Shown here piece by piece: positions 27,325 to 50,600 of a DNA stretch of 64,000 nucleotides. The position numbers were made by a program, and so were the translations under genes. The notes under the pieces were generated by a model. The model had not been told where the DNA came from, made no database searches, and worked only from the letters and a program-made list of their open reading frames with translations. The DNA is from Ostreococcus lucimarinus (lineage: Eukaryota). Within the stretch, counting starts at the first letter, position 1. Each line of letters opens with the position of its first letter. The stretch lies in NCBI GenBank assembly GCA_000092065.1, contig CP000582.1; one strand, given 5' to 3'.

Positions 27325-27362
<38 letters not shown>

Positions 27363-27812: not shown

Positions 27813-28250
27813 GTTCTATCGAAGGCCGCTGTTCTCTATCAAGCGCCAGGGTGTACTTGAATTTTTCGAGAGACTCAAAATGAACCTACTATAAGTGGCG
27901 GCAGCGGACTCAGCCGGTTGAGCACGGCGCGCGAATGACGCCGTGCGCCCTCAAGGGCGAAAGGCTTGAAGCGGAAAGGGTGTCATAATCGACATCGCGC
28001 TTTTCGTATTTAATACGCTTTGAAGACCATACTGGTACCCAAAATAAAAAACTATCATGTAGGTCTCCCCCGAAGGAATAATTTATATCAGACAGATAGA
28101 CTTTAGGCGAATGAAGACAAATTATATGCATTCTTAATCAGTTCATGTTTCGAGTTTACACATAAACTGAGGCGCGCAGCGGCACGGAGCCGTCGACAAC
28201 CGTGCGGCCGCCACTCGCGCGAGGATATCCCATGCACCACAGCTTTCTGA
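27813..28250. promoter_or_regulatory. AT-rich divergent promoter region between Toc75 (minus) and LTV1 (plus)
   Basis: 438 bp at about 42% GC between two head-to-head ATGs. Small minus-strand ORFs here (27910..28131, 28103..28375, 28143..28451) have no protein-like features. Confidence 0.3.
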
Positions 28251-29675: not shown

Positions 29676-32600
29676 TTATTTAGGTGTCATTTTCGACAAC
29701 AAATTGATCGCATCTGATAGCGCAGATTCATCAATTTTTTCTTCTATTCGCAGATCCAAGTACTTGTGTTCGATACCGAAGCATAAAGACAGCTCGTTGG
29801 AAATCCCTTCAAGCTCACTGATGACACAAATAGGAATATCAGACATGAAGTCAGGATTGACACGGAATAATGGATCACGCGATGAGTAGAGGAGCTGAGT
29901 GCAGCATAGAATACTCAATGTCTCGTTCGGGCATTCATTGACACTATTTGGATTGCTCTCTATAAATACTCTGCGCAAACTTGCGTTGACAGATGCGGAT
30001 TCGTTCTTGACTTCAGGATAAGAGGATGCAAGCAATGCCGCATAACTGAGAATTTTTCCTACATCCGAATTATTCTGTTGCGAGACGAGGACTTCATACT
30101 CTTTTGTGAATAAAGTAACCAAGCCAAGTATTTTTGGGTTCGACTGTATTGCATCACTGGCTTGCTCGCGCCAAGATGGGTCTGCGCATACATGTTGCTT
30201 TGTTTCACACAGTCTCACGAATTCTCGAGCGATATACACTCCTAAACCACGCGTGACTAGTATCACTTCATCGCCGTTGTTAATGTCTAAATAAGCGCGT
30301 ATGCGTTGCACATACATTGCGGCAAGCTCTGAGACGCTTGCTGCGGTGGAGGATTGCCAGTCCGTAGTAACGACGAAAGCTGCTGATTTTATCGACGAAG
30401 CTAGGCTGGAATAAAAACTAGTTCCACAGTCTACGTCATTGAGAAAGACGACTATGGGAGTTGTTGTATTACCATTCAATCGCGTAATAAAGCTTCGACT
30501 CACAGGTGAATTTCTATGCTTCCATTGCGGGAGTCGGTATCTCAAAGTAGCTGCAATGCGCTGAGATTGCTCAGATAGGTTACCTGGAGAAGCTGCATCT
30601 TTCCAGGCATTGGCCAGAGTCGGATTTATGAAACAATGCGACAGAATATTAGGGTCTGCGGCACCTTTTCCTCCCGGTTCGATGGGCTCAAACATTTTCG
30701 CATTATTATAAGAATAAGGATTTGTCATGTTCGTGCAAGAGGGCAATTTTAGAAAGTCGCATATTTTGTCGATATGCGACGTAGGATCAGAAACTAGGTC
30801 TTCGTAACAAATTTCCAATTGTCGAGTACTTTCTACATTGCGCAGAAAATCAATGATGTTGGAATTTCCTCGTGCCCATAATTTATCCATATGGCTCCAG
30901 ATCTGCTCGATGGTGGATGCAGATAGAAGCTCCAAACGTTTGCGGCCATTTAATTGTAGCAACTTCTCATTTTCAAGGATATCATGCCTTGATTTGAAAG
31001 TTTCTTTTGACATGGAGTGGATCGTTGCGTACGGATGCCTGTGTATGAATATATAGTACACATCTTCAAATATTGATTCGGCTCGTTCCAAAGTGTCCAA
31101 AGACCACGAATAAGGTGGCGACTTGTCCACTAGAATCCGATCGCCACACCAATTTTGAAGGACTTCATAGACATTCTTTGTTGACATGGAATGCATGTCG
31201 TGCATTATTTTATCAGCTTCATCGGCGAAACAGCCGCGAAGTTCTACAATAGCTTTACGCAAACCTTCAAACGCCCACGAGTGTCCACGAGATATTGACT
31301 CAAACCTTTGGTACATCGTCTCAAAATTTAGCAAGTAAAGTTCTTGAGGTGCAAAAATTGATGGATGAGAGTTTAGTATCATCTGCAAAAGAGTTGAACC
31401 AGACCTCGGCGACGACAACACGAATAGTATCTTTCCCTTCACCTTTGGCTCGTGGAGCCGTAATCGGGGCATCCATGAATTCGAATCTGTTAGTGGCGTA
31501 TACTTTTTAACTTGCGACTCTATCCACAAACAAATGCGCTCACCGGCACTTAATCCTACTGAGAATGTTTCGCGTGTGACCACTTTGATTGCGGCGTCAA
31601 CACTCGCTGCGATCCCTTTGATAGTATTCTCTCTGAATTCGCCAGACCCACAGTGGCTGAATCCAATATCTCGCAGTACATTGTGCAAAGGCTCTGACAT
31701 TGACAGTGGATGTCGGCGTCGACATGGCTCGTTTCTGCTAAGTGAGCTGTGTAACTCGTTCCAAATACATTTTTGTAGTTGGAAGGTCAACCGATTTGCG
31801 TCAACATGAGTATTCTGGTTAGCGGCGTTGCATCTGGTAAGTAGAACGTTTTGTCTGTGGCGAGGTTCTTGAAAAGCCCGGCAATCGCGGCGCACATTTG
31901 TGAGCACGTGTGCCATACTACCGCCATAACCAAAAGAGCTCGTGCCGATTATACCTCCGCTAGTGGGCCCTTTTAGCATAGGAAAGTGTGATCGCTTGTC
32001 CAAATTTACATCTCTCCATGTGTGTCCCATCTTCTCTGCGGTTGTGCACGCATGTTGCCCTAGTAGTAGATTGTTCAATTTTCTAAAATGAACCAATGGT
32101 GATGTCAATAAAGCGTGACTCATGAGGGCAGACTTGATCAGTGAAATCATACCAGATGCACCATCGAGGTGCCCTAAATTGGTATGTAAACTACCAAATC
32201 CTATGTTTGAAGTGCGAGATGGGTCTTCAAAACAGAATATACGCTGGTATGCACCGATTTCTATTGCGTCGCCAAGTGGCTCACCTAGTCCAGATGCTTC
32301 TACGAATGCAACGTCTGCTGGTAGTATGTTAGCATCAAGCAGTGCACGGTGCACTTTGTACTCAATTGCCGGTCCTCGAAGCGCTCTGAGCGAAGCGCCG
32401 CCGCCTTTATGTATACACGAGGACCCCAGGAGCGTGACAAGCATAAATTTGCTACTGGTGGCTTTGTATGTACAGATCATGACTGCACCGACGCCTTCAC
32501 CTCGCTCAAATCCGTCCGCTTGAGCATCAAATGTTTTGCATCGACCATCAGCTGGAAACATCTGACGTGCAATATGTAAATCTGATAATTGTCTGTGAAG

Positions 32601-35600
32601 TATGATATTCGAACTCGCCGCTATGGAGGAGTTAGCATATTCAGGATCTGATGGCACATTCACTTTAGAAGAACTCGTAGCGAGATGAATACAAACTAAT
32701 CCTGACGCAGACGCGCAGTCGATAGAGATAGATTCGCCTTGAAACCCAAATGTGTGACTTATTCGATTCGACGCAAAAGCATACGTCGATTCGGACATAC
32801 CATGCGCAATATTTGATAGCTTATCGTGGGCAGAGCAGCCTGAATCTGTGAACATCACACGGAACGCTTCGTCCCTTGCCACAGAATCACTGTCATTCGT
32901 ACATATACCTACGTATACTGATATTTTTTGCTCGTAAACGCGCGTACTCTTGTCTGAATATGGTACATCGGTAACTTCATGGCACGCTTTCAGCAACTCG
33001 CGCTGTTGCGGTTCAAGAAGTGATCGAACATCAGATCGGCCAATTCCAAAAAAGTTTGAGTCGAAAACGTCAAGCTGTCTTAGGAACGAGCCGTGCCTAC
33101 TATATTCGTGATAGACAAAATCCCGCTTTCTACTAATACCGGTGAAAGAAAATATACGTTCAACATCCCAGCGATCTATGGGGATCTTCCTAATTGCATC
33201 TATACCGTTTGCGATTGCGCCACAAAATTGTACCGGATGCATGATATGTTTGCAATCTGCGTCACCCGTGTGCACTGCGATACATGCCACCGAGCTTATG
33301 ATACCATCCTGAACGACGATACGCATGGGCTCTTTGGCAGATGGTTTGCAATCATCTATTTTTTGCCGAAGAGTCGTCTTATGGATAAATTTTGATAACG
33401 ATGTGATTGTTGGATGGTCAAACGCAACTGTTGACGGCAATGGTACGTCAAAGCATATTTCTATGGAACGGGATAGCTCCGTGAGATACATGCTGTCTAA
33501 TCCAGCGTCTATGAATGGCATATTAGCGTCAATAGTGTGTCCGAGAACCCGGCGAACATGATCAGACACAAGGGATTGTGTCTCTGATAACGTGCTGGGA
33601 TGTGTACGATCTGTACACAATAACGTTCGCTTTGAATCCGTTGAAACACCTTGCGACAGTAACGGGATGGACAATTTATCCCAAAGAAACATGTTTGCCA
33701 CTATGGTCGCATCTTGTATCATAACGCTGTTCAAAATCGACAGTATATGTATCCCAACCTTTGTGGGCACTGACCCAATACCAAATCGAGTCAGACTGTC
33801 AAGCTGCAATGCGCTTTGCTTCATCATTCCTGTCAAGTTTACCCACGCTCCCCATTGAACACTAACTTTATCGAGACCTTGATGGTGTGCGTAGTTGCAA
33901 TGTGCATCTAACGAAGAATTGGCAGCGACATAGTTCACTTGCCCAAACGTTCCTAGCAGCACAGAGATCGAGGAGTAATAATCAGTTTGAACTGATAACG
34001 AAGTCGGATCGCGAATACTCGCTAGAGATCCGATTAGTTTCGGAGACACGACGACACGAATCGTATAGGCTGTCTGTTTCGTCGCGATAGCGTCACGAAG
34101 AACACCGGATGCAAAGAATGAACGATTAACTTGAACTCGAGAATTGTGCCATGTATTGTCTGAGTAGTGGCAGTTATCAACGGAATCAACAGTTACTGAA
34201 TGGGATGAGGATCCGTTCCAAACGACAACAGAGTATGAACATCGACCACTTCGGTTCGTCAAGCGAATCAATCGCTGTCCATTCAGCAGTGCTGTGATGT
34301 ACACAAGTTTACCAATTTCACCAGCACCGTGTACTTCTGTTTGATTATTTTTACATTGATTGTTGCGACGCATGTTAGCCGGCGATGAATGAGTCGAACA
34401 TAGATTCGGCGTAAACGCAAGATGACCAACGGCACTGACGTGGCGAAGACGCGCTGTGGTGTTTGAGATACCCGACGGATGTATGCGAGCTGAATCTCCC
34501 GTACATACGGCATATGTTGTATTTTTATTTTCGACACAAAACACTCTTGGTAGTGTCGATAGTGTCAGGTCGGATATATGTTTATGTATACTCGATATTG
34601 GCGATGGAAATATGCGTTTTGTGACGGGTGCTGATTTGCTGAGTACACATAGGTGCTTAGATTCGCTCGAAGTTGTGAGCGCACAAATTGAATGCAAAAT
34701 ATTCACAACGGTTGGCAGTGATCCGCATCTGTGGACGCTGCGGCGGTAGTTGCACAATGTATGCCGAACAGTAGTTGTAGCACAAGTGTCGCCATTGGGT
34801 GCAACATTAACTCGAAGCGGGCTCGCCTCCCAGCGAAGAGCATACAAATATTCAACATTTGGAACACTTGAGCGAGATGAAGACGGCGATGTGGATGTGC
34901 ACAATACAGAGTCAGTTGAAATGTGCAAGAACACCTCTGGTGTAAACGTTGACCAATTTTGACGTGAATAATTGTACTTGAACCTGTGATCACTCAGTAT
35001 AATGCAACACATGAGCGTGTCGTGTTGCGCATATTGAACGGTACATGAACGTCGATATAGCTCAACAGTCCGTACATACGCGACGGAGTTACCGCCGGTG
35101 AACGTATCGAGCAAAGTACATCGCAAACGATGTTGAGGCTTTTCATGGTATTCATTGGATTCAACATGAATATCTGCAGAAGACAAGCCGCCATGCATTT
35201 CGCGAAATTTAACAAACCCTTGTTCTGCATCAGCGTATGCTGCCACTGTGTTCGCATTTAACCCGACGCCGTGTTCACCAGCTCGCACAGTAGCATGTGT
35301 GCTAGCGATAGCGTTGGATTGAGCATCAATTACTTTATATCCCGACCCGTACACGAGAACTTTATTTGATTTTAGATATGCATCTAAAACTTTCGAGGCA
35401 TACACAGTTGAAAGTACTACATTTTTTAGTGAGAGTTCTGTGGTACGATCATCCAAAATCAAACATGTGGCATCAGATGCAACTTGCAACGGTGATGAAG
35501 TAAGAGCATTTACGGTAGCGTTGAAGCGAATCGAAACACAAGCCATAGTGAGTGTCGATAAAGCGACTGTTGCACGCGAGCTTAGCTGTGATATCCAACA

Positions 35601-38600
35601 CTCGATGCTGTGTTGCATGACAGAAGCATCTGGCAAGTATTTCATCACGTAATCGCGTCGAACAGATACGTGTGCGTTCGTTCCTTGAAATGCAAACGCG
35701 CTCACTCCTCGGTTTACGGCGTGTGCATCACATTGCCACGCACTTTGCGTTGCCTGGCGTGGAAGAGCGATTCCGCATCGCTCAGCCGTATCTTGATTCA
35801 GAATACTCTGAATGTGGGTGCTGAGCTGGCATAGGTGCACGAGCGCAGGAGTGTTCAAGCGAAATATGCAATCAACAATGCCACACAGACCCATACCGCC
35901 CGAAGCTGGCTCGGTGTGTCCGCAGCGAGTCTTCATTGCTGAAAAAGTAACGACTGGCAATCTTTTGAGGCTGCTAAGTACGGTGCGCGCTGCGCCAACT
36001 TCTATAGGATCCCCCAGAGACGTGCCAGTACCATGAAGCTCTATACCACCAGAAGAGCTGTTATCATTACCAGACTGGAGCATGGTGTGCAAAATCACGC
36101 TCTGCTGCGATGGGCCATGGGGGGCTGTGAGAGAGCTTGAGCGTCCATCTTGGTTGACAGAAGATGCAGAAGCGTAAAACATGCAGTAGTCGTCGCGCAC
36201 GCCGTCGCTGTGCGGTGTCAAGAGCAGCAAAGTTGATCCTTCTCCTCGAACGTAGCCGTTTGCAGCCATGTCCAGAGTCTTACATCGCCCATCATCTGCC
36301 AGCATCCCCGCAGTTCTAAAAACAATAGTCGTCGTCGGGTTCAGGGTGATGTTCACGCCGCAACATATCATGCTGTCGCATTCTCCCGTGAGCACTGCGT
36401 TACGCGCTACATGTGATCCAACTAAAGACGACGAGCACGCTGTGTCGATGCTTGCACACGTTCCGCGCAGATTGTATGTGAAAGAAATCCGTCCACACGC
36501 AACACTGAGTGAGCCACCAGTTGCTTGAAGCTTGCCGGCACGAGAGGTGATCGCGCTGTAATCAGTGCTAGATATACCGACAACAACGCCACATCCCTCG
36601 CTATATTGGCCGTTTACTGCATGTGCGCGCCCATCTAAGGCGCGCGCTAGAAGGATGCGCTGCTGTGGGTCCACGGCAGTAGCTTCTGCACGTCGCATTG
36701 AAAACAGGGCAATATCAAAATATTCAATGTTATGGAGAAATCTACCAAACCGTATCAGGGCGTAATCGTCGGCTCTAATATCCCACCGATTTTCAGGCAC
36801 ACCACTTACGTCATCCAGTGCGTGCTGATACTGCCCGGGGCTGCTGACTGATGATATGCACACTTGAGCTGAGTATGTGACATCAATAGTACTATTACGG
36901 AGCACCTGTGCACTTCCGTAATTCGATTTTCCATGCGACAGTTCACCCGCCACGGCTTCTGCAAGTGCATATACGCTAGGATGATCAAATACAACCGTCG
37001 ACGGGAGCTGCACAGCGAATTCATCGTTCAGTCTGCTTCGCAATTCAACGGCGCCGAGTGAGTCAAGACCCGCATCCAACAGTGGCTCCTTTGCATCCAA
37101 TGGTCTACCAACCGCATCATTCACTATACTCGCTACACGTCCCGCAATTTCGTCGCCGTGGATCACGCATGATGGTACGCCACGTTCTCCGGCTGATATC
37201 TTGATCTTGAGTTGTGTGCTATTTTGATCGACGTATGGTGCATTTGGCGGGGAAACCGCACTGTGTGATGTAGGTACACTCCATGCATGTAAGCCGGTTG
37301 CACGCAGTGGGCAAACGGCGTAGATTGAGAACATATTTGGAGGTTGAATGAGAGTGCGTAGCGTTCTCAGCGCAGTGTGTGGGTCAATCACTTCTATCCC
37401 TAGAGATCCAAAGTTTCTGGGTGTACCCACTGCAGAACGCACAGCCATGCCATAGGATCCACCCCAGGGTCCCCACTGGAGACTCATGCACCGCCATCCC
37501 ATCGTCGTGCCGAGTTGAGCGAGTGTGTCGAGCAGTGCGTTAGCACCTGCATAGTTAGTTTGACCCGGCGAGCCGAGCAATGCAGCTATGGACGAGAAGA
37601 AAACATGTGTCAAAGACATTTGAGGGAGATTTTCATGACACACCGCTTGTGCACCTTGTGTTTTGTTTGCAAACGCAATCGAGACTGTGGAAAACGTTTG
37701 CTTCATTAGGATTGAATCTTTGAGAACACCGCTCATGTGCAATACCCGACCGACATTTCGCACACTACACGAAACCAAGCGTTCTGTTTCGCTTCTGACA
37801 CAAAGGTTTACACGTTGGATGGTAAGCAGGGATGTAAATTTTGCCGGCGCGATATGTTTTCCTCTTCCGGAACGCCCCACGAGTACGAAGGGTCTATCAC
37901 AGATGGATGCATTCCATTCATAGATAAGCGCTCCGATGCCACCGACACCACCGGTGTAAATGTCGCTGCACGGGTGTAGAAGCGCATTAGAGTCGCACTG
38001 TGCGATGTGCTTTGCCATCGCTCGACGTGGGTCTCGCCACAACATTTTTGCGTGTAAATTCGGACAGACCTTCGATAACGTCGGCGTGCGGACATGGCGA
38101 TTCGATATTGATTTGGCATGCACCTCGTTCGAATCAGAATTTGAATGAAGAAAGTCGGTTGCTTTTGCGTGCACAATACTTGATGCGCCCAAATCAACGC
38201 ACACTAAACGCTGTGACATCTCATGTGCGCCACTCCTGAAGATACCCCACATGGCACCAGCGACCGGAATACATCGACCGATAGAGCTCTGCGTGTCAGC
38301 ACATAGGCGTGGACAGGCTGACACCAGCTCTGTTGCTGTCGTGCGAATCACGCATAGATTGGAACTTGCATGTAAACTCTGCACGGCAAGAGAAGCCACG
38401 CGTGATGCACTTTGCCTCCCCGCAGCTAAATGCGAGTATACGTTCGTGACACCTTCTGTACGGAGAAGCGGTCCTCTGTATGTGTTCTCGGTTTTCCACG
38501 TGGCGCGATATATCATATCGATGGCGTGTCTTCCTTGCCTCCCACCATAATAGCGCTCTGATCCCATCGCTGCAGGCTCTGAGTGAGACGCAACCTTTTT

Positions 38601-41600
38601 GCCCAGTAGTTCGTGCATCGCAAGTTGATTTTCCGTCGCTTGCTGTGCTATATGGTCACTCTGCATCTTTTGCGGCGAGAAGCGTGATAGTGCGTGGTCT
38701 CGGGACCGTGCCAACGAAGTTTGGTGTGTGCAGATTTCGAGACTCACTGGCAAGTGCAATTCAAAGCTATCATCACTGAAAGTATTTAGCCTGAGAGCTG
38801 ATAAGCTCTGCACGTGCGCATCGAGCTCTGCGGCAAACGACTGATCTAGTGTTTGCACCTTTTTACTATGAACTTTGAAGTGCAAATCAAGGCTGGATTT
38901 GGAGACGTTTGCGTAATACACTTTCGGCGATGGAGTTCGTTGCGTGAGCATGGTCTGCACTACTTTACAAGACGTGTGCCCTGCTCGTTGTGACGATACG
39001 GAAATACTGCCGGTAGTTTGCGATATTTTGAACGATAATGCATCGTTGCGCCAAGTATCCAACAAACAGGCAGCATGTATTTGCGTGCGACGCACCACGT
39101 TAACAGTCATTGTGTGGAGTTGCTTTACACAAGTGAGGGTCAGCTCCAGAAAGCTGGTAGCGGGGAGAACCAAGCGGCCACGAACGCAGTGATCGCGATC
39201 TATATGTCGTGTTTTTAATGGTGGGAGTTGAATCCGTAGGCATTCGCTCGTCTCGACTGCGTGCACGAGCCGCAGGCCAAAGGCAGCATGTGATATCCAA
39301 CACTCGATGCTGTGTTGCATGACAGAAGCATCTGGCAAGTATTTCATCACGTAATCGCGTCGAACAGATACGTGTGCGTTCGTTCCTTGAAATGCAAACG
39401 CGCTCACTCCTCGGTTTACGGCGTGTGCATCACATTGCCACGCACTTTGCGTTGCCTGGCGTGGAAGAGCGATTCCGCATCGCTCAGCCGTATCTTGATT
39501 CAGAATACTCTGAATGTGGGTGCTGAGCTGGCATAGGTGCACGAGCGCAGGAGTGTTCAAGCGAAATATGCAATCAACAATGCCACACAGACCCATACCG
39601 CCCGAAGCTGGCTCGGTGTGTCCGCAGCGAGTCTTCATTGCTGAAAAAGTAACGACTGGCAATCTTTTGAGGCTGCTAAGTACGGTGCGCGCTGCGCCAA
39701 CTTCTATAGGATCCCCCAGAGACGTGCCAGTACCATGAAGCTCTATACCACCAGAAGAGCTGTTATCATTACCAGACTGGAGCATGGTGTGCAAAATCAC
39801 GCTCTGCTGCGATGGGCCATGGGGGGCTGTGAGAGAGCTTGAGCGTCCATCTTGGTTGACAGAAGATGCAGAAGCGTAAAACATGCAGTAGTCGTCGCGC
39901 ACGCCGTCGCTGTGCGGTGTCAAGAGCAGCAACGTTGATCCTTCTCCTCGAACGTAGCCGTTTGCAGCCATGTCCAGAGTCTTACATCGCCCATCATCTG
40001 CCAGCATCCCCGCAGTTCTAAAAACAATAGTCGTCGTCGGGTTCAGGGTGATGTTCACGCCGCAACATATCATGCTGTCGCATTCTCCCGTGAGCACTGC
40101 GTTACGCGCTACATGTGATCCAACTAAAGACGACGAGCACGCTGTGTCGATGCTTGCACACGTTCCGCGCAGATTGTATGTGAAAGAAATCCGTCCACAC
40201 GCAACACTGAGTGAGCCACCAGTTGCTTGAAGCTTGCCGGCACGAGAGGTGATCGCGCTGTAATCAGTGCTAGATATACCGACAACAACGCCACATCCCT
40301 CGCTATATTGGCCGTTTACTGCATGTGCGCGCCCATCTAAGGCGCGCGCTAGAAGGATGCGCTGCTGTGGGTCCACGGCAGTAGCTTCTGCACGTCGCAT
40401 TGAAAACAGGGCAATATCAAAATATTCAATGTTATGGAGAAATCTACCAAACCGTATCAGGGCGTAATCGTCGGCTCTAATATCCCACCGATTTTCAGGC
40501 ACACCACTTACGTCATCCAGTGCGTGCTGATACTGCCCGGGGCTGCTGACTGATGATATGCACACTTGAGCTGAGTACGTGACATCAATAGTACTATTAC
40601 GGAGCACCTGTGCACTTCCGTAATTCGATTTTCCATGCGACAGTTCACCCGCCACGGCTTCTGCAAGTGCATATACGCTAGGATGATCAAATACAACCGT
40701 CGACGGGAGCTGCACAGCGAATTCATCGTTCAGTCTGCTTCGCAATTCAACGGCGCCGAGTGAGTCAAGACCCGCATCCAACAGTGGCTCCTTTGCATCC
40801 AATGGTCTACCAACCGCATCATTCACTATACTCGCTACACGTCCCGCAATTTCGTCGCCGTGGATCACGCATGATGGTACGCCACGTTCTCCGGCTGATA
40901 TCTTGATCTTGAGTTGTGTGCTATTTTGATCGACGTATGGTGCATTTGGCGGGGAAACCGCACTGTGTGATGTAGATACACTCCATGCATGTAAGCCGGT
41001 TGCACGCAGTGGGCAAACGGCGTAGATTGAGAACATATTTGGAGGTTGAATGAGAGTGCGTAGCGTTCTCAGCGCAGTGTGTGGGTCAATCACTTCTATC
41101 CCTAGAGATCCAAAGTTTCTGGGTGTACCCACTGCAGAACGCACAGCCATGCCATAGGATCCACCCCAGGGTCCCCACTGGAGACTCATGCACCGCCATC
41201 CCATCGTCGTGCCGAGTTGAGCGAGTGTGTCGAGCAGTGCGTTAGCACCTGCATAGTTAGTTTGACCCGGCGAGCCGAGCAATGCAGCTATGGACGAGAA
41301 GAAAACATGTGTCAAAGACATTTGAGGGAGATTTTCATGACACACCGCTTGTGCACCTTGTGTTTTGTTTGCAAACGCAATCGAGACTGTGGAAAACGTT
41401 TGCTTCATTAGGATTGAATCTTTGAGAACACCGCTCATGTGCAATACCCGACCGACATTTCGCACACTACACGAAACCAAGCGTTCTGTTTCGCTTCTGA
41501 CACAAAGGTTTACACGTTGGATGGTAAGCAGGGATGTAAATTTTGCCGGCGCGATATGTTTTCCTCTTCCGGAACGCCCCACGAGTACGAAGGGTCTATC

Positions 41601-44600
41601 ACAGATGGATGCATTCCATTCATAGATAAGCGCTCCGATGCCACCGACACCACCGGTGTAAATGTCGCTGCACGGGTGTAGAAGCGCATTAGAGTCGCAC
41701 TGTGCGATGTGCTTTGCCATCGCTCGACGTGGGTCTCGCCACAACATTTTTGCGTGTAAATTCGGACAGACCTTCGATAACGTCGGCGTGCGGACATGGC
41801 GATTCGATATTGATTTGGCATGCACCTCGTTCGAATCAGAATTTGAATGAAGAAAGTCGGTTGCTTTTGCGTGCACAATACTTGATGCGCCCAAATCAAC
41901 GCACACTAAACGCTGTGACATCTCATGTGCGCCACTCCTGAAGATACCCCACATGGCACCAGCGACCGGAATACATCGACCGATAGAGCTCTGCGTGTCA
42001 GCACATAGGCGTGGACAGGCTGACACCAGCTCTGTTGCTGTCGTGCGAATCACGCATAGATTGGAACTTGCATGTAAACTCTGCACGGCAAGAGAAGCCA
42101 CGCGTGATGCACTTTGCCTCCCCGCAGCTAAATGCGAGTATACGTTCGTGACACCTTCTGTACGGAGAAGCGGTCCTCTGTATGTGTTCTCGGTTTTCCA
42201 CGTGGCGCGATATATCATATCGATGGCGTGTCTTCCTTGCCTCCCACCATAATAGCGCTCTGATCCCATCGCTGCAGGCTCTGAGTGAGACGCAACCTTT
42301 TTGCCCAGTAGTTCGTGCATCGCAAGTTGATTTTCCGTCGCTTGCTGTGCTATATGGTCACTCTGCATCTTTTGCGGCGAGAAGCGTGATAGTGCGTGGT
42401 CTCGGGACCGTGCCAACGAAGTTTGGTGTGTGCAGATTTCGAGACTCACTGGCAAGTGCAATTCAAAGCTATCATCACTGAAAGTATTTAGCCTGAGAGC
42501 TGATAAGCTCTGCACGTGCGCATCGAGCTCTGCGGCAAACGACTGATCTAGTGTTTGCACCTTTTTACTATGAACTTTGAAGTGCAAATCAAGGCTGGAT
42601 TTGGAGACGTTTGCGTAATACACTTTCGGCGATGGAGTTCGTTGCGTGAGCATGGTCTGCACTACTTTACAAGACGTGTGCCCTGCTCGTTGTGACGATA
42701 CGGAAATACTGCCGGTAGTTTGCGATATTTTGAACGATAATGCATCGTTGCGCCAAGTATCCAACAAACAGGCAGCATGTATTTGCGTGCGACGCACCAC
42801 GTTAACAGTCATTGTGTGGAGTTGCTTTACACAAGTGAGGGTCAGCTCCAGAAAGCTGGTAGCGGGGAGAACCAAGCGGCCACGAACGCAGTGATCGCGA
42901 TCTATATGTCGTGTTTTTAATGGTGGGAGTTGAATCCGTAGGCATTCGCTCGTCTCGACTGCGTGCACGAGCCGCAGGCCAAAGGCAGCATGTGATATCC
43001 AACACTCGATGCTGTGTTGCATGACAGAAGCATCTGGCAAGGATTTCATCACGTAATCGCGTCGAACAGATACGTGTGCGTTCGTTCCTTGAAATGCAAA
43101 CGCGCTCACTCCTCGGTTTACGGCGTGTGCATCACATTGCCACGCACTTTGCGTTGCCTGGCGTGGAAGAGCGATTCCGCATCGCTCAGCCGTATCTTGA
43201 TTCAGAATACTCTGAATGTGGGTGCTGAGCTGGCATAGGTGCACGAGCGCAGGAGTGTTCAAGCGAAATATGCAATCAACAATGCCACACAGACCCATAC
43301 CGCCCGAAGCTGGCTCGGTGTGTCCGCAGCGAGTCTTCATTGCTGAAAAAGTAACGACTGGCAATCTTTTGAGGCTGCTAAGTACGGTGCGCGCTGCGCC
43401 AACTTCTATAGGATCCCCCAGAGACGTGCCAGTACCATGAAGCTCTATACCACCAGAAGAGCTGTTATCATTACCAGACTGGAGCATGGTGTGCAAAATC
43501 ACGCTCTGCTGCGATGGGCCATGGGGGGCTGTGAGAGAGCTTGAGCGTCCATCTTGGTTGACAGAAGATGCAGAAGCGTAAAACATGCAGTAGTCGTCGC
43601 GCACGCCGTCGCTGTGCGGTGTCAAGAGCAGCAACGTTGATCCTTCTCCTCGAACGTAGCCGTTTGCAGCCATGTCCAGAGTCTTACATCGCCCATCATC
43701 TGCCAGCATCCCCGCAGTTCTAAAAACAATAGTCGTCGTCGGGTTCAGGGTGATGTTCACGCCGCAACATATCATGCTGTCGCATTCTCCCGTGAGCACT
43801 GCGTTACGCGCTACATGTGATCCAACTAAAGACGACGAGCACGCTGTGTCGATGCTTGCACACGTTCCGCGCAGATTGTATGTGAAAGAAATCCGTCCAC
43901 ACGCAACACTGAGTGAGCCACCAGTTGCTTGAAGCTTGCCGGCACGAGAGGTGATCGCGCTGTAATCAGTGCTAGATATACCGACAACAACGCCACATCC
44001 CTCGCTATATTGGCCGTTTACTGCATGTGCGCGCCCATCTAAGGCGCGCGCTAGAAGGATGCGCTGCTGTGGGTCCACGGCAGTAGCTTCTGCACGTCGC
44101 ATTGAAAACAGGGCAATATCAAAATATTCAATGTTATGGAGAAATCTACCAAACCGTATCAGGGCGTAATCGTCGGCTCTAATATCCCACCGATTTTCAG
44201 GCACACCACTTACGTCATCCAGTGCGTGCTGATACTGCCCGGGGCTGCTGACTGATGATATGCGTACTTCAATCGAACGAGTTGGGCTGTCAATTGGCAG
44301 TTCTGTTTCTGTTCTTTTTATTTCGTTCTCAGCCCCTAGGATCAATCCTGCTATACTCTTGACCGTGGGGTAATCGAATATGAGGGTACTCGGAAGGTCG
44401 GTAATTGTAAAAGCATCTGCTATCGCGTTACGACTCTCAACGGCACCAAGCGAATCAACACCGGCCTCCATTATCGCGGAGTCAGCAGTGAGTTCATGAC
44501 CAGAGACTTCCTTGAAAATTTGCAATAGTTTTTGTACTACCAGTACTTCTGTGTCTTTGGCAGAGGCCGTATTCTTGCTGTCTACGTTCCCCGCTTGATT

Positions 44601-47600
44601 GAAGTTTTGCTTCTTTCCGTACAGGAAGCGATTTTTCACTGCGAATGACATGAACCTACTCCAGTTTAGTCCGGTCGCTATCAACTGCTGCGATAATAGT
44701 GTAAAATTGTGATGTAGTATGGAGTGATCGAGACGCGTCTGGATTATAGACATAGCAACTGATGGTTGTATGTATTGAAGACCAACTCGTTCCATACGAC
44801 GAGAAATACCGTCAGAATTAGCCATTCCATCACCAGCGAGCCATGCACCCCATTGAATTGACTCGTTTACCATGCCACGTTCTTTGCAAGTTGAACTCCA
44901 TTGATCTAACCAACTGTTTGCATACGTATAGTTACTTTGACCAATTGAAGCAATGGTCGCCGCCAGGGATGAGAAATTTAGAAATGTTTTCACCAGGTAG
45001 GCATCTTTTAGCGCACTATGCAATCGTTTTACCCCACTCACTTTCGGTGCAGACACTTCAGCCAAGTGAGCTGATGTCTGATCGCAGATCAACGCATCTC
45101 TTAGAACTCCACTAGTGTGAAATATTCCCACAGAGTCAGACAAAGACAACGATCTGAAAATTGTCGAGAATTCGGAGCATGATATGTCTGCGTTCTCCAG
45201 TGTGAAGTGCAAGCGGCTATCCCTTGGCAATCTCATTATTCCATTATTATGACCATTACGTGATAGAAGTATAACACTATTTGCACCAATACCCAGCAAC
45301 CACCGTGTGAGCAGTATTCCAATCGCTCCAGTTCCACCCGTGACTAATTGATGACCAGACATCACAGTTTTGTGATACACGACGACTTTTCCAATGTGGG
45401 ACGCTCTCGTCATTTCCCTCATGCTTTGACGGATGAACCGAAATTCGTTGCTCAAACATATCGATGGCTGTATCAAACCAGCACACATAAACAACCCCAG
45501 TAATGATAAACGAAAACTGAGTTCAGCAATAGACTGGTGATCAATAGCCTTGACTTCATAAGTTGCTTTATAGTTTTCTTTTTCGAACGCGTCGGCTGAC
45601 CAAATACCGCGCTTTGATAGCTCTAAAAATGTAGCGTGTACATTCAATATCGACAAGGAGGCCGCAATCATGCCAGGTGATGTAAGCGTATTTAAGACTA
45701 CGTCGACGGGACAACTTCGTGATAAAGAGCTTAAAAATACTGACTGCGAAAACTTAGTCGATCGTGAGTTGCTCATGCATGGAATACCAAGGTATCGCAT
45801 CAAATGCCGTTTCTTCACATTACTCGATGTTCCAGAGAGCGAGTCACCCATCATAGAACATATCGATTTTATCGCAAGTCCAACGCCACCCGTCGTCCCA
45901 TGTACGAGAAGATGAGCTGGAGTGGTTTTAAGTCGACGAATGGAGCTAAAACATTCGTCGACGGTGAGAAAAACTGTCGGAATCGCCGAAGCTTCGATAA
46001 AATTTACTCGCGGCGGTTTTATGCTAAATAATGAACGGTGTACGTAAGCTACGTCACCGAGACAACCAGTCGTCAAGCCAAATATAGCATCTCCGTGTGA
46101 ATGAGAGTACACATCGTCAATTATGCCTGAAAAGTCTGTACCCGGTGGTTCTGTCACCCCAGGGTACATATCTAGAATATTCAAAACGTCCCTGAAGTTC
46201 AGCCCTACGGCAAGAATCCGCGTTCTAACAAATGGCTTTGATACTGTGATTCCACTATCCAAAGCTATACTCGGTACGGGAGTCAGATCTTTTATCGCAC
46301 CTCTGGGACTTGGTTGAAGTACAAAGTTATTCAATGGTACTTTTCGGCATCCGTGTATCATTGGAACATATCTAGCTCGAGCCAAATATTGAGACTGAAT
46401 TGGTTCTGCACGACTTTCACATTCTGCCTTCTTAAAGTGGCTCGACGCTCGCTTTAGCGATAGTGGAGAGTCGCTGTGCACGTCCAAGTGATAAGTTTGA
46501 TTGAGATCAGCTACAGAGACCATCGATATTGTGTGTATCACAGATGCTGAAATGACATTTGACATATTTTCTCCCGCGCGACCAACTGGTGTGCTTGATG
46601 TGGCGAGCCCAACAAGCCGTATTGACGCATGCACATTTTGCATCATCGCAGCGTAAGACGGGGCATATCGGTATGAAGTCGATGTGTTAGTATCCATACT
46701 GCGTCCCAGATTGTATGAGTGTGGGGTTTGCGGACAAACGTGCTTGATATGATGCACTGCGCACCACATTAGTGCATATAGCACACTTGATTGCACTTTC
46801 TTGTTCAAGTTTTCTCTTTCGAAAGCACGATTCATAGTACTCAAAGGTTTGCATTGTAAACGGCGCAATAGTGCAAGATTTGATGTCGTATGATTACTCT
46901 CGGGTGCATCTTTCTTCTTTGCTGAGGACGAGCTCTCAAACTGGTGCTCTAAAGGCAGCTGCTGCAGTTGAAATATATGTATCACTGCTGGTACGTGAAC
47001 CACGTCGTTATTTTCTTTGTCCATCAAGCAATACAAAATGTGCATGGAGCAATCAATCAGATGTGCTGCTCCGACGGTCGCGCATGCTGAGCCGACGTAC
47101 TTTGACATCTTTGTCTTAAGAGCACCACGCCGTGAACGAATGCAATGCCCAAGCTGCTGGAAAGGTTCCCTGATATTGGAACCATCATTTGTTTTTCGGA
47201 ATTTGGAGGTTGTTGCGCTCTCGCCAGAACGCAACATGAGTCGCATAGTGCTATCTCGATATGTTACCACTGATATCGTATCAAGCTGCTTCAGTACGAT
47301 TGGAATCAGCAAGATTGTCTTCATTTGAAGCACGCTATCAATGAGCAAGTCGTCCAAGGGAATTATCGGAATAATCAATGATGCAGCTGCGGGTAGAACG
47401 GGCGTGTGGTTCACGCTGTGGTCGTGTAAGCTAGACCAAGCAGGTCTACATATATTGACGGTGAAAACCGCTCTCGACGCTGATTTAAAGACACTTATAA
47501 GTTGCACATTTGAATACAAAGTACCAACACCAGCATGGAACATTTGCGAACAAAGTAAACGCGCTCTTGTCGAGCAACAACGATGCGTCAACTTCGATGG

Positions 47601-50600
47601 AATCGCGCGGATAATTGTGTGCGCATTAACGCCACTCATTCCAAAAGAAGAAGAAGCCGTAAGCTCGATTTGCGGCGCTGTTGTCATCGCTCGTGCAATG
47701 TGAACATTCCCTTCGCTGGCCACGTGTGTGAATACACTAAGATGTGGATTCAGATTACGACAAAGGCGCATTCCAAAATTAACAGCGTGCGTTGAGCAGA
47801 CTATAGAATCGAGAATGCCAACTACTCCCGCGCTACCTTCGGTATGGCCTAGTGAACTTTTACTGGTTCCAATGAGAAGAAATGAAAAGCATGATTGAAG
47901 TTGCATTAGGCTACTGAGCTCGATCGAGTCTCCAAGCGAGGTTCCAGTTCCATGGAGTGAAAGATAGCAGCTACGACTCGACGCATTTTCAATGCGTAGC
48001 AACGCGACTTGGATCAACTTCTGCTGGCTTGGTCCGTTGGGAGCCGTGAACGAACTTGAGCGCCCATCTTGGTTCACAGTGCACGCCGATAACACAAAAT
48101 CGTGTCGGCTTTCATATCTATGGGCTGGCTGGACTGGTTCTAAATGTAAAAGACCAAATGCTTCTCCTCTTCCATATCCGTCCGCTCCAGCATCTAAGGT
48201 TTTGCATCGGCCATCGTAAGCAATAGCACCGAGAGATGACAAAGTCACGAAGGTATCCGGAATCAGTATACATTGCGTGCCGCCAGACAACGTAGACGAA
48301 GCATGTGAGCCATCCATACTTGCACACGCTAAGTGCGCCGCTACCATTGACGAGGAGCATGCCGTATCTATCGCGATGCTCGGCCCATTCATTCCGAAGG
48401 TGAACGATGGTCTGCTAGCGAGGAACGAAATACCATTACCTGTACCTGCGTACGCATAGAACGCCCATTTTGTCGATCTCAGAATGAACTGGTAGTCATT
48501 CCACATTACGCCAATAAATACCCCCATATGATGATATATTTTCGTGTCAGATACACCATGCAAGCATTCGATGCAACAATTCAACAAATGACGTTGCTGC
48601 GGGTCCATGCATATCGTTTCTTGAGGTGTCAAGTGGAATATAGTGTTGTCAAAGTAAAAGATGTCGCGCAACAACACAGCAAATCGCGTAGATCCACTGA
48701 GAAGCTCAACGTCAAAACGAGTAGAAAGCCGTCTTTGCAATTCAGCACCAGTGACCAGTGACGTCCGCAAGCTTTGCAAATTCTTTATGTTGTTTGGATA
48801 TCGAAGTGAAATGTTTGATATTTTGTGAACATTCGATCCTGTTCCTTCGTGAGGATTCAATCCCAGTGATTTCGATTTCAAATCGAGTGAAATCACTGAA
48901 TCTGAAGTTGTACGCGCGTCCGTGAATGAGAAGATTGCTTTGCTTAGCTCATGCACTGTTGGATAATCGAACATTGATATAATTGGCAAGTCTATCTGGA
49001 ATTTGGCGTTTATAGACGATCGAAGGTCAGCAAGCGCCAAGCTGTCAAGTCCAAGCTGCATAATAGGCTGCGCATCATCAATATATGTATACGTTTCCAT
49101 GTCGATCGATGACATTATCGCGTGTCGTAGAAAATCGGCAATCGTATCAAAAGAATATGAACTAGTTTTTGTCTGAATTGAATCTGATACGATATTCGGT
49201 GTGGAAGGGCTAGTGAGCGCAGGCAGACGCGACGCTATGTATGTGGGTACCGTACAGGCATTCAACATAGAAAGGTTTAGCATAAACAAGCCGTGGGCGA
49301 CGTTTATAGATGCTAATAAGCGCTTCTCCAAATGTGCGTCCAGGCGGGCCATTCCAAAGACGGCGTCCGTCCATGCACCAAATTGGACACTGGAACTAGA
49401 GAATCCGCTGTTGAACATCAACTTCACACATTCATCTAACACGTTATTTGATATTGAATAATTCATTTGACCGAATGAATAAATAAAGCCAGTTATTGAC
49501 GAGCACGCGATTGATCGTTGAGCTTGTATATTTGCTAAGGCGTGGTCACGAACATATCCTAGTACTTTTGCAGAGGTTACAGTAGACATCGTTTCTGGAG
49601 TCTGTCGGAGCACAACAGCATCACACAATGACCCACTGGCGTACACAAATGTATTTATTCTATTGCGATCGATTGAAGTCAAGCCTTCTCGTGCAATTCC
49701 GCGATCACTCTTAAATGATCGAACTATGCTCTGTCCAAACCTCGAATGCACTCGGAGTTTTGCAATATGAGCGCTCCAACCACGACGACTCGAGAGGGAA
49801 AGATTGCTAGCGTCGGAGTGTAGAAGAAATAACGAAAGACACGACCCGATAGCGCCAGTCGCACCGGATATCGAAACGCCATTTCTTAAACTAGTCCCGT
49901 AATATGAATTATTTTCACAAATAAAAATATTTGGAATTCGACTAGGAATCACGTGTACCTCGTCATCATTTTGCAACTTGCCGATACCTGGGAGGTGTTT
50001 TGTGGCACTGATACCCATAGCTTCAATTTTTAGATACGTGGCGGCGATTTCACACGTCTTCATTTTCGAGTAAATGTTGGAATTTTTTGGTAACGGTGAG
50101 CTGTACATTGACCATGAATATGTGTGACGCGGTATGTGAGTGTCAATCCGATATGAACGCGCCGAAACATGAGATATGACTGCCAAAGCTGTTCGATTGA
50201 GACAAGATGAATCGGCTGACGCCCACGGAAAGTACTGAAAACTATGCCCATGTAAGTCACTAAGATGTTTGCTTGCGCGATAACGCACAAGGTTCCACAG
50301 AGTGTTTTTATGCACCTTGTGGATGGAAGCGCGGATACGAGAGCTTTTCATTCGAAACTTGATCACCGAGCCAATGCTAAAATTATCTGCATACATGGAG
50401 TAATCTGCTTCGGACAGTGGCTCTCGTGATATTTTAGTAGTCAATGGGATCTTTACGTACGTTGTCCTGTCTATGACATCTGTAAAGGCATTTGACAAAT
50501 ACAGCTCTCGCAAACCAGTAGGTATGTACGATGAAAATGACTTGGGTGAGTGCAGAGCGGCGCAGGATTGAAAGGTGTTATCAAGCGACGAGCTGTGGTA

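What the first reader, a model, noticed from the sequence alone, without database searches (positions are those of the whole stretch)
29679..33240. CurM/olefin-synthase-like offloading end: dead KS, sulfotransferase, then a TE-like domain that appears to lack its Ser nucleophile
The assembly line ends KR-ACP-KS0-ST-TE-like. In the KS0, the catalytic Cys is Ser and the HGTGT motif is absent. In bacteria the ACP-ST-TE arrangement (CurM, Ols) sulfonates a beta-hydroxyl and drives decarboxylative release as a terminal alkene. Here the ST has a convincing PAPS loop (SPRSGSTLL). The TE-like domain has RGLGV where GHSxG is expected, so release chemistry may differ. Possibilities include a sulfated product retained, or hydrolysis by another enzyme. 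A sulfotransferase-terminated megasynthase in a picoalga would be novel chemistry (a sulfated or olefinic polyketide).
Basis: partly seen in the sequence, partly recalled or inferred. Interest (0 to 1): 0.85.

Follow-up and report, generated by a model that had tools for sequence, protein, structure and literature searches.

The report
Algal polyketide synthase: sulfotransferase, dead thioesterase
The giant polyketide synthase of the marine picoalga Ostreococcus lucimarinus ends in a sulfate-adding domain that looks intact, sitting between a remodelled condensing domain and a release domain that has lost its catalytic serine, so this enzyme family probably finishes its unknown product by a route not yet described.

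Summary
The 3' end of the giant minus-strand ORF (29676..63965) encodes KR-ACP-KS0-[degenerate ACP-like relic]-ST-TE-like.

- **Source.** The window is Ostreococcus lucimarinus CCE9901 chromosome 2. The gene is the published trans-AT synthase OluPKS3.
- **KS0.** The changes (Cys to Ser in DCASAS, His to Ser in ASGLGE) are real, but they were already reported in 2015. That paper called the next domain only "hydrolase-like".
- **ST.** It is a clear relative of the CurM/OLS sulfotransferases (E 9e-53). Every invariant polar residue of that clade that I checked is kept.
- **Family.** In about 13 related marine lineages that position is G, P, D, Q, I, V or, in one lineage, S. The domain is still under purifying selection (dN/dS about 0.27).

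So this is not a working CurM-style ST-TE release pair. Most likely the ST sulfonates the last beta-hydroxyl and release occurs by another route. The product (sulfate ester or alkene) is unknown. I rate it a new variant of a known kind, of moderate interest.

The parts
33843..34331 (-). Ketoreductase of the last elongating module. It has a Rossmann motif (HGAGEIG), a B-type 'LRD' motif, and the catalytic K, S and Y (GQVNYVAAN).
   Evidence: Pfam KR 9.9e-15. Motifs and coordinates were read from the translation. This module has no DH motif HxxxGxxxxP, unlike the modules at aa 4337, 7025 and 8259, so a beta-hydroxyl is expected to persist.
33384..33569 (-). Last functional-looking ACP (AGLDSM; Ser10158 at 33492-33494).
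   Evidence: Pfam PP-binding 1.3e-09. The motif is listed.
31908..33233 (-). Terminal non-condensing ketosynthase (KS0). Motifs: IDCASASG at 32700-32723 (Ser at the Cys position, Cys at -2), EASGLGE at 32280-32300 (His to Ser), SLHTNLGH at 32169-32192 (Lys to His, second His kept).
   Evidence: Pfam ketoacyl-synt N and C. Alignment with the other KS domains of the ORF. The same remodelled motifs occur in about 14 related lineages. It is the most conserved domain of the cassette (50-65% identity; dN/dS 0.12-0.21). Already described in PMC4661987.
31578..31721 (-). Degenerate carrier-protein-like relic between KS0 and ST (RRRHPLSMSEPLH...AASVDAAIKVV). In a gap-free alignment a Pro sits at the phosphopantetheine Ser position.
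   Evidence: hhalign of the linker family against ACP domains gives probability 80% and E 1.4e-5 when a relative (P0005) defines the columns, with NLSSM aligned to GMDSL. It is weaker (P 0.036) but in the same register with the window as master. The Ser is not conserved among lineages.
30519..31430 (-). Sulfotransferase domain of the CurM/OLS clade. Residues, with CurM numbering in brackets: PSB loop P-R10854-S-G-S-T, Glu10875 (Glu60), Lys10948 (Lys133), R10976-H-P...S10984 (R161, H162, S169).
   Evidence: PF13469 1.2e-28 and PF00685 1.2e-08. CurM ST 4gbm E 8.7e-53 and OLS ST 4gox E 1.7e-48. 41 of 52 columns that are at least 90% conserved in 30 bacterial relatives are kept, including every invariant polar residue listed above. 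dN/dS 0.12-0.17 in relatives.
29679..30518 (-). Thioesterase-fold pseudo-enzyme domain (TE*). Elbow LVTRGLGV at 30237-30260, with Gly11240 (30246-30248) at the nucleophile position. Thr11287 sits at the Asp position. A possible relic His is His11400 (FGIEHKY, 29760-29780).
29676..29678 (-). Stop codon of the synthase. The convergent LTV1-like gene ends at 29624.
   Evidence: ORF list. The neighbour is an exact match to XP_001416136 and is called LTV1 by other sources. Only 51 bases separate the two genes, so there is no room for a further exon carrying a working TE.

Best explanation
The synthase OluPKS3 ends in a modified sulfonation cassette.

Proposed steps:
1. The last elongating module (KS, B-type KR, ACP, no dehydratase) leaves a 3-hydroxyacyl chain on the ACP at Ser10158.
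2. The sulfotransferase, a catalytically intact relative of the CurM/OLS 'activating' sulfotransferases, uses PAPS to sulfonate that beta-hydroxyl.
3. The two partners such a domain normally works with have both lost their catalytic residues here. The carrier domain directly upstream has degenerated to a relic without a conserved Ser. The C-terminal thioesterase (FAS type) has Gly at the nucleophile position and Thr at the acid position.
4. That thioesterase fold is retained under purifying selection. I take it to be a non-catalytic structural or substrate-binding domain.
5. The KS0 has a remodelled active site that is nearly invariant across lineages. It is retained as a non-condensing core, either as a dimerisation scaffold or as a gatekeeper.
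6. Chain release therefore cannot use the CurM mechanism (a Ser-acyl intermediate, then hydrolysis, then decarboxylative loss of sulfate inside the TE). It must rely on a separate hydrolase, on transfer to another synthase, or on another domain.

My preferred outcome is that the sulfate stays on the released polyketide, giving a sulfated product.

Shown here: the domain identities, the residue states, and their conservation and selection. Inferred: the substrate, the order of events and the fate of the sulfate.

The confidence of 0.5 is for the whole statement. The part 'active ST plus catalytically dead TE' alone I put at about 0.8. The part 'sulfate is retained in the product' I put at about 0.45.
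For: ST identity and integrity:
- Pfam and PDB matches.
- All invariant polar residues of the bacterial clade are kept in six algal sequences.
- dN/dS 0.12-0.17.

Beta-hydroxyl substrate:
- The KR has its Rossmann motif, LRD motif and K/S/Y.
- The last module has no DH motif.

TE fold and type:
- Profile against human FAS TE E 4.9e-7, with Ser2308 aligned to the consensus Gly.
- CurM TE belongs to Abhydrolase_1, and hhalign of TE* to CurM-type TEs gives only 7% probability.

Loss of TE catalysis:
- The nucleophile position is G, D, P, Q, I or V, and S in only one lineage.
- No invariant Ser, Cys or His exists in the family.
- TE* is constrained rather than decaying freely: dN/dS 0.25-0.29.

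Other points:
- ACP-like relic.
- KS0 remodelled motifs are identical in about 14 lineages.
- The sequence is verified by four independent metagenome assemblies.
- There is no room for another exon.
- A homologue is transcribed: a 7015-aa MMETSP transcript.
- In the sister species O. tauri, which carries the orthologous terminal KS0 (OtaPKS1; PMC4661987), the only hydrocarbon detected is a CER1/3-dependent C21:6 alkene (PMC13326499).
Against: - No biochemical data exist for any member.
- Every characterised member of this ST clade (CurM, OLS) uses sulfate as a leaving group, not as a final decoration. This is my own knowledge plus the descriptions in PMC11730487.
- The functional ACP lies about 690 residues and one KS0 away from the ST, an arrangement never tested.
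- The TE* model is only moderately confident (pLDDT 57) and its C-terminal half is poorly modelled.
- One lineage (the L041 group) has Ser at the elbow, and about half of the lineages keep the Asp. Residual or non-canonical activity in some relatives cannot be excluded.
- The assignment of CurM catalytic residues (Glu60, Lys133, Arg39) rests on my recollection of McCarthy et al. 2012, which I could not open.
Confidence: 0.5

Rival explanations
1. A CurM/OLS-like terminal alkene is still made. The ST activates the beta-hydroxyl. A free-standing hydrolase, or slow spontaneous hydrolysis, frees the 3-sulfooxy acid. That acid then loses CO2 and sulfate to give a terminal olefin. TE* perhaps only binds or positions the sulfated chain.
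For: The ST is closest to the two structurally characterised activating STs. All 19 cyanobacterial relatives I fetched pair the ST with an intact TE (GHSMG...GGHNLH). That shows what this ST clade normally does. TE* is under purifying selection, so it has some role.
Against: The nucleophile has been lost in nearly all lineages over a deep divergence. TE* is of a different hydrolase subfamily from CurM TE. No hydrolase gene lies nearby. The only hydrocarbon detected in O. tauri is a CER1/3 product, although a large polar polyketide with a vinyl end would not have been seen by that method.
Confidence: 0.25
2. The remodelled KS0 is the release or transfer catalyst. Its conserved Ser/Cys and His residues move the (sulfated) chain to water, to an acceptor alcohol or amine, or to one of the two smaller PKS proteins of the species. 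This would have made the TE's own chemistry dispensable.
For: KS0 is the most conserved domain of the cassette. Its substituted active-site residues (DCASAS, E[AT]SGLGEP, HTN.GH) are identical in about 14 lineages. That pattern is expected for a changed function, not for decay. dN/dS is 0.12-0.21. Shelest et al. also suggested a role in release or transfer.
Against: This is purely inferential. No KS with this motif set has been characterised. Strong conservation is equally explained by a structural role as the dimer core that holds the ST near the ACP.
Confidence: 0.15
3. The whole terminal cassette is a functionless evolutionary leftover, and the polyketide is neither sulfonated nor released through it.
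For: Two of its four domains (the ACP relic and TE*) have lost their catalytic residues.
Against: ST and KS0 show dN/dS of 0.12-0.21, and even TE* shows 0.25-0.29. The ST keeps every invariant polar residue of its clade that I checked. The cassette is kept at the C-terminus in all related lineages found.
Confidence: 0.05

Closest known systems
CurM (curacin A) and OLS (cyanobacterial olefin synthase) ACP-ST-TE off-loading cassette
   Same: The ST is a clear homologue: 37% identity to CurM ST, E 8.7e-53, same PAPS loops and the same Glu and Lys. It sits at the end of a PKS after a KR-ACP that should deliver a beta-hydroxyacyl chain. It is followed by an alpha/beta-hydrolase-fold domain.
   Different: - A KS0 and a dead ACP relic lie between the working ACP and the ST.
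- The C-terminal domain is FAS/PF00975-like, not the Abhydrolase_1-type CurM TE.
- It has Gly for the nucleophile Ser and Thr for the acid.
- The host is a eukaryote and the synthase is trans-AT type.
OluPKS3, OtaPKS1 and MicPKS2 terminal KS0 'clade 6' (Shelest et al. 2015, PMC4661987)
   Same: This is the same gene and the same KS0. The paper reports the His to Ser change and the DCASASG motif, and places the KS0 in front of a further domain.
   Different: The paper labels the following domain only as 'hydrolase-like (IPR027417)'. It does not identify it as a CurM-type sulfotransferase. It does not mention the ACP relic or the dead TE.
Animal fatty-acid-synthase thioesterase domain and other type I PKS/NRPS TE domains
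   Different: The GxSxG Ser is Gly here and is variable across the family. The Asp is lost in the window. The lid half is very divergent. No single family member reaches any Pfam TE model.
Non-elongating KS0 domains of bacterial trans-AT PKSs
   Same: KS fold, loss of the HGTGT His, and a position before a carrier-like segment near the end of the line.
   Different: Typical KS0 domains keep the active-site Cys for transacylation (my own knowledge). Here that position is Ser, with a conserved Cys two residues earlier and a Lys to His change. The downstream carrier has degenerated.
Emiliania huxleyi PKS ending in a sulfotransferase (PMC7073580)
   Same: It is another eukaryotic alga whose modular PKS has a KR-containing module followed by an ST.
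   Different: I have only a figure-level description and did not examine the sequence. Whether it has a KS0 or a TE remnant is unknown.

Membership tests
CurM/OLS-clade PKS sulfotransferase | Sequence membership in the sulfotransferase families and closest similarity to CurM and OLS ST | tested here: met
   PF13469 1.2e-28 and PF00685 1.2e-08. 4gbm E 8.7e-53 and 4gox E 1.7e-48. The next PDB hit is at E 9e-4.
CurM/OLS-clade PKS sulfotransferase | PAPS-binding loops (5'-PSB PRSGST; 3'-PB RHP...S) and the catalytic Glu and Lys (CurM Glu60 and Lys133) | tested here: met
   All are invariant in 30 bacterial relatives and kept in all six algal sequences. The functional assignment of these residues is from memory of McCarthy et al. 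2012, which I could not open.
CurM/OLS-clade PKS sulfotransferase | Placed directly after the ACP that carries the beta-hydroxyacyl substrate | tested here: inconclusive
   The segment directly upstream is ACP-derived but lacks a conserved Ser. The nearest intact ACP is about 690 residues upstream, beyond the KS0.
CurM/OLS-clade PKS sulfotransferase | PAPS-dependent sulfonation of a (3R)-hydroxyacyl-ACP | not testable with these tools
   Needs an enzyme assay.
CurM/OLS ST-TE decarboxylative off-loading pair | A TE of the CurM type (Abhydrolase_1-like) fused after the ST | tested here: not met
   CurM TE hits PF00561 at 2.1e-31. TE* against 19 CurM-type TEs gives hhalign probability 7%. The best relatives of TE* are FAS-type TEs.
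CurM/OLS ST-TE decarboxylative off-loading pair | A catalytic Ser-His-acid triad in the TE | tested here: not met
   Gly11240 is at the Ser position and Thr11287 is at the acid position. The His is uncertain. The nucleophile position is hypervariable in the family.
CurM/OLS ST-TE decarboxylative off-loading pair | A terminal-alkene product | not testable with these tools
   The product is unknown. In O. tauri only a CER1/3-dependent C21:6 hydrocarbon was detected (PMC13326499).
Type I thioesterase domain (FAS/PKS/NRPS, PF00975-like) | Alpha/beta-hydrolase fold whose closest structural relatives are megasynthase TE domains | tested here: met
Type I thioesterase domain (FAS/PKS/NRPS, PF00975-like) | Significant sequence similarity to known TE domains | tested here: met
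   The 13-sequence profile A3 hits human FAS TE at E 4.9e-7, and the top ten hits are all animal FAS. Single sequences do not hit any Pfam TE model.
Type I thioesterase domain (FAS/PKS/NRPS, PF00975-like) | A GxSxG nucleophile elbow with Ser | tested here: not met
   The window has T-R-G-L-G. Relatives have G, D, P, Q, I or V, and S in one lineage.
Trans-AT PKS non-elongating ketosynthase (KS0) | KS fold with loss of the HGTGT histidine | tested here: met
   Pfam KS N and C. EASGLGE replaces the HGTGT seen in the upstream KS domains.
Trans-AT PKS non-elongating ketosynthase (KS0) | The active-site Cys is retained for transacylation | tested here: not met
   The canonical position is Ser10419. 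A conserved Cys lies at -2. Whether that Cys can substitute is unknown.

The most novel reading that the evidence does not exclude
Mamiellales picoalgae have evolved a new chain-termination device. In it, a thiolase-fold domain with a rebuilt Ser/Cys-His active site (the 'KS0') has taken over release or hand-over of a beta-sulfonated polyketide. The original thioesterase survives only as a catalytically silent binding or scaffold domain. This would be a termination logic not described for any PKS. It would yield sulfated (or sulfate-eliminated) polyketides in some of the most abundant eukaryotic phytoplankton.
Probability: 0.15. Interest if true: 0.8.

Novelty: new variant of a known kind. Interest (0 to 1): 0.5.

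Why it matters
- **Unknown products in abundant algae.** Ostreococcus, Micromonas and their relatives are among the most abundant marine photosynthetic eukaryotes. Their giant PKS genes, in the low-GC outlier chromosome region, have no known product. If the line ends in an intact PAPS-dependent sulfotransferase, chemists have a concrete handle: look for sulfate esters (negative-ion MS, loss of 80 Da, 34S labelling), or for a vinyl terminus.
- **A correction to the literature.** The domain was labelled 'hydrolase-like' in 2015.
- **A natural experiment for PKS enzymology.** A CurM-clade ST has been kept for a very long time without a working TE partner. It sits beside a KS whose active site has been rebuilt and then frozen. 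This could show what else such STs and KS0 domains can do.

Tried and rejected
Tries that gave little or nothing:
- Word-indexed protein searches with the C-terminal domain, and with a 5-sequence profile of it, found only a 180-aa fragment identical to the window.
- Single-sequence AlphaFold gave an unusable model (pLDDT 38).
- Pfam and NCBIfam give no hit for the C-terminal domain, in the window or in four relatives.
- The first 5-sequence profile against the PDB gave only E about 0.3 to FAS TE. It became significant only after the metagenome scan supplied more lineages.
- hhalign against CurM-type TEs was weak: global mode gave nothing, and local mode gave P 0.005 with 7% probability. I therefore rejected the idea that TE* is a decayed CurM-type TE.
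- An HMM of the TE* family does not detect the intact-looking C-terminal domain of locus L056, and Pfam does not call that domain a TE. L056 therefore remains a lead, not proof of the ancestral state.
- The ST search returned only short proteins and no full ST-TE synthases. I obtained the cyanobacterial ST-TE loci through the genome scan instead.
- The primary CurM ST and TE structure papers are not in the held library.

Ideas rejected:
- His62 to Tyr in the ST as a sign of inactivity. That position is variable in bacteria (H, N, Y).
- An assembly or sequencing error at the TE elbow.
- A missing downstream exon carrying a real TE.
- An intron at the 5' window edge. The ORF simply runs off the window.

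Full report
**Residue numbering.** All residue numbers count from the first codon of the window ORF. The real protein is longer, because the ORF runs off the window end.

**1. Where the window comes from**

- The window holds one giant minus-strand ORF, 29676..63965 (11,429 codons). It runs off the window's right edge: the frame reads IDTACSSS at the very end.
- GC drops from about 0.60 in the left 26 kb to about 0.45 across the ORF.
- Three neighbouring proteins are exact matches to Ostreococcus lucimarinus CCE9901 proteins on an 895,087-bp record, which I take to be chromosome 2. They are inositol-3-phosphate synthase (XP_001416131), a 2-oxoglutarate dehydrogenase E2 (XP_001416373) and an LTV1-like protein (XP_001416136). 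A Toc75-like gene is also present.
- Pfam finds no acyltransferase domain anywhere in the ORF. It finds nine KS domains, several KR, ACP and DH domains, and one condensation domain.
- This matches the published trans-AT synthase OluPKS3: 14 KS, a central C domain, and duplicated modules 11-13 (PMC4661987).
- A recent preprint places such giant PKS genes in the low-GC outlier region BOC1 of Mamiellales (10.1101/2025.04.21.649811).

**2. Checking the observation**

The last 1774 residues give these Pfam hits:

| Domain | E-value |
|---|---|
| KR | 9.9e-15 |
| ACP (PP-binding) | 1.3e-09 |
| KS N-terminal / C-terminal | 2.3e-31 / 1e-17 |
| Sulfotransfer_3 | 1.2e-28 |
| Sulfotransfer_1 | 1.2e-08 |

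Nothing is found for the last ~285 residues.

In an alignment of all KS domains of the ORF, the seven complete upstream KS have DTACSS, HGTGT and GH. The partial KS at the window edge shows HGTGT and GH, with its DTACSS at the very edge. The terminal KS has IDCASAS, EASGLGE and SLHTNLGH. So:
- The Cys position is Ser, with a Cys two residues earlier.
- The first His is Ser.
- The Lys before the second His is His.
- The second His is kept.

Exactly this (His to Ser, 'DCASASG') was reported in 2015 for OluPKS3, OtaPKS1 and MicPKS2. [quoted passage not shown] The KS0 part of the finding is therefore real but already known.

**3. The sulfotransferase**

- Against all PDB sequences, the region matches CurM ST (4gbm, E 8.7e-53) and OLS ST (4gox, E 1.7e-48). 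The next hits are at about 1e-3.
- I aligned it with 30 bacterial relatives and five other algal sequences. 41 of the 52 columns that are at least 90% conserved in bacteria are kept in the window.
- Every invariant polar residue I checked is kept in all six algal sequences. In CurM numbering these are R39, S40, G41, S42, T43, E60, D132, K133, R161, H162, S169, W194, E219 and D266.
- The one apparent anomaly is Tyr where CurM has His62. That position is variable in bacteria (H 14, N 11, Y 4), so it is not a concern.
- Among related lineages the ST has dN/dS of 0.12-0.17.
- I conclude the ST is very probably active. Calling Glu60 and Lys133 catalytic rests on my memory of McCarthy et al. 2012, which the library does not hold.

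**4. The expected substrate**

- The KR before the last ACP has a Rossmann motif (HGAGEIG), an LRD motif (B type) and the K/S/Y residues.
- The DH motif HxxxGxxxxP occurs in three upstream modules but not in the last one. The tandem module duplication ends just after KS7, and the rest of the last module is unique.
- A 3-hydroxyacyl-ACP is therefore expected. That is the substrate type of the CurM and OLS STs as described in PMC11730487.

**5. The C-terminal domain**

It is almost an orphan at the sequence level.
- A full HMMER scan of 1.8 billion cluster representatives found only four relatives. All end in KS0-ST-this domain. They come from marine metagenomes and one MMETSP transcript.
- A metagenome scan then supplied 42 loci and, with the earlier hits, about 13 distinct lineages.

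Evidence that it is a thioesterase fold:
- A 13-sequence profile hits the human FAS thioesterase at E 4.9e-7. The ten best PDB hits are all animal FAS TE.
- An AlphaFold model built with five sequences is moderate overall (pLDDT 57, pTM 0.62). It is confident in the N-terminal half (70-89) and has the beta-alpha-beta order of an alpha/beta hydrolase.
- The best Foldseek hits are FAS, Pks13, NocB, tautomycetin and other TE domains (E 3e-5 to 1e-3).

It is not the CurM kind of TE.
- CurM's TE is best described by Abhydrolase_1 (PF00561, 2.1e-31; PF00975 only 1.3e-07).
- hhalign between the algal family and 19 cyanobacterial CurM-type TEs gives only 7% probability.

**6. Catalytic residues of that domain**

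- Three independent alignments put Gly11240 (T-R-G-L-G) on the nucleophile Ser. These are the profile alignment to GYSYG of human FAS, the hhalign alignment to GHSMG of CurM, and the strand-turn-helix of the model.
- Across lineages the residue at that position varies:

| Residue | Lineages |
|---|---|
| G | window, L026, L027, L028, L044/45 |
| D | P0002 |
| P | L032, L035, L052/54 |
| Q | L033 |
| I | L034/57 |
| V | L036 |
| S | L041 group only |

- The small residue at +2 is kept in all but one lineage.
- The Asp after strand 6 is kept in roughly half of the lineages, but it is Thr in the window.
- A His near the C-terminus may be kept in the window (FGIEHKY) and in the Micromonas-like group. 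It is lost in the window's closest relatives.
- No Ser, Cys or His is invariant in the family. A displaced nucleophile is therefore unlikely.
- The domain is not drifting freely. dN/dS is 0.25-0.29 in four pairs, about twice that of ST and KS0 but far below 1.
- It behaves as a retained pseudo-enzyme.
- The sequence is not an artefact. Four metagenome contigs from different projects are identical over 29676-31624.
- Only 51 bases separate the stop codon from the convergent LTV1-like gene.

**7.

- The 185 residues between KS0 and ST contain a carrier-protein relic.
- When a relative (P0005) defines the columns, hhalign against ACP domains gives 80% probability and E 1.4e-5, with NLSSM on GMDSL. 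With the window as master the match is weaker but in the same register.
- The Ser is not conserved. It is Pro in L036 but Ser in the closely related L034 and L057. It is Asp in P0025, and Pro in the window by gap-free counting.
- The ancestral order therefore looks like KS-ACP-ST-TE.
- One metagenomic locus (L056, GC 0.56) seems to show that state. It has an intact KS (DTACSS, HGTGT), an ACP with GLDSL (PF00550 1.7e-10) and an ST with the algal signature FAPQELYLL (PF13469 6e-17). Its C-terminal domain has GYSLG, LLVDP and GGHF motifs.
- However, that C-terminal domain hits no Pfam TE model and shows no HMM similarity to the TE* family. I treat L056 as a lead only.

**8. The KS0 is the most constrained part**

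- Identity of the window to its relatives, by domain:

| Domain | Identity |
|---|---|
| KS0 | 50-65% |
| ST | 44-57% |
| ACP | 45-64% in the relatives that include it |
| TE* | 28-37%, over partial lengths |

- The substituted active-site motifs are the same in about 14 lineages: DCASAS[GA], E[AT]SGLGEP, HTN.GH.
- This pattern fits a changed but important role better than decay. It is also compatible with a purely structural role as the dimer core.

**9. How it most likely works**

Shown:
- an intact CurM-clade ST at the end of a trans-AT PKS
- a preceding module that should leave a beta-hydroxyl
- a dead ACP relic
- a FAS-type TE fold without a nucleophile
- a conserved, rebuilt KS0
- purifying selection on all of these

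Inferred:
- The ST sulfonates the beta-hydroxyl of the chain on ACP Ser10158.
- The CurM route (acyl-Ser intermediate, hydrolysis, decarboxylative loss of sulfate in the TE) is not available.
- Release therefore uses another hydrolase, another synthase or another domain.

I favour a product that keeps its sulfate, for three reasons. The ST has been maintained for a very long time without an active TE. TE* is not of the sulfate-recognising CurM type. In O. tauri the only hydrocarbon detected is a CER1/3-dependent C21:6 alkene.

The main rival is a terminal alkene formed after hydrolysis in trans. It remains quite possible, because every characterised member of this ST clade uses sulfate as a leaving group.

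**10. Comparison and novelty**

- The gene, its trans-AT nature, its module duplications and its KS0 are published.
- An ST-terminated PKS has been noted in Emiliania huxleyi.
- In the held literature I found no statement that the Mamiellales PKSs carry a CurM-type sulfotransferase, a dead FAS-type TE or an ACP relic. Automated database annotation may well flag the ST.
- I therefore rate it a new variant of a known kind. It resembles CurM/OLS in its ST. It fails the membership test for the ST-TE off-loading pair.
- Interest is moderate. It gives a testable prediction about the unknown products of very abundant algae and an unusual KS0/ST/pseudo-TE combination. It is not categorically new, and part of it was known.

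Noticed in passing
window 1-64000 (transition near 26000-28000): GC falls from about 0.60 to about 0.45 just before the PKS. This is most likely the edge of the low-GC outlier region (BOC1) of chromosome 2, where giant PKS genes are reported to lie.
   Followed up: partly
window 35600-44200: A tandem repeat with a period of 3702 nt (one whole PKS module), at least 90% identical and with 100%-identical stretches. It gives three near-identical KS domains (window KS5-7, which are OluPKS3 modules 11-13). The block has GC of about 0.52, against 0.45 in the rest of the gene.
   Followed up: partly
window 60978-62207 (-): A condensation (NRPS C) domain inside the PKS (PF00668, 2.1e-22). No adenylation domain occurs anywhere in the window. 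Shelest et al. noted the same.
   Followed up: no
window 63900-64000 (-): The ORF does not start in the window. The frame reads IDTACSSSLVA at the very edge, so the gene continues upstream. It has about five more KS according to the literature.
   Followed up: yes
L056 29-4057: A metagenomic relative (GC 0.56, organism unknown) has what looks like an intact KS...ACP-ST-hydrolase cassette. It shows GLDSL, a TLRSGSS loop, FAPQELYLL, GYSLG, LLVDP and GGHF. It may represent the undecayed ancestral arrangement, in another planktonic lineage.
   Followed up: partly
proteins P0030, P0038, P0039, P0043, P0048, P0064, P0075: Many bacterial relatives of this ST are short ACP-ST proteins (about 420-480 aa) with no TE. 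CurM-clade STs working without a fused TE may therefore be common and are uncharacterised.
   Followed up: no
window 31383-31352 region (ST), CurM positions 46 and 59: Two residues invariant in 30 bacterial STs (Arg46 and Pro59) are both Gln in all six algal sequences. This is a clade signature of unknown meaning.
   Followed up: no
window 18856-21447 (+): An 863-aa ORF has a weak DUF659 match (8.4e-07, below the Pfam cut-off). That domain is common in transposase-derived proteins. It lies in the normal-GC part of the window.
   Followed up: no
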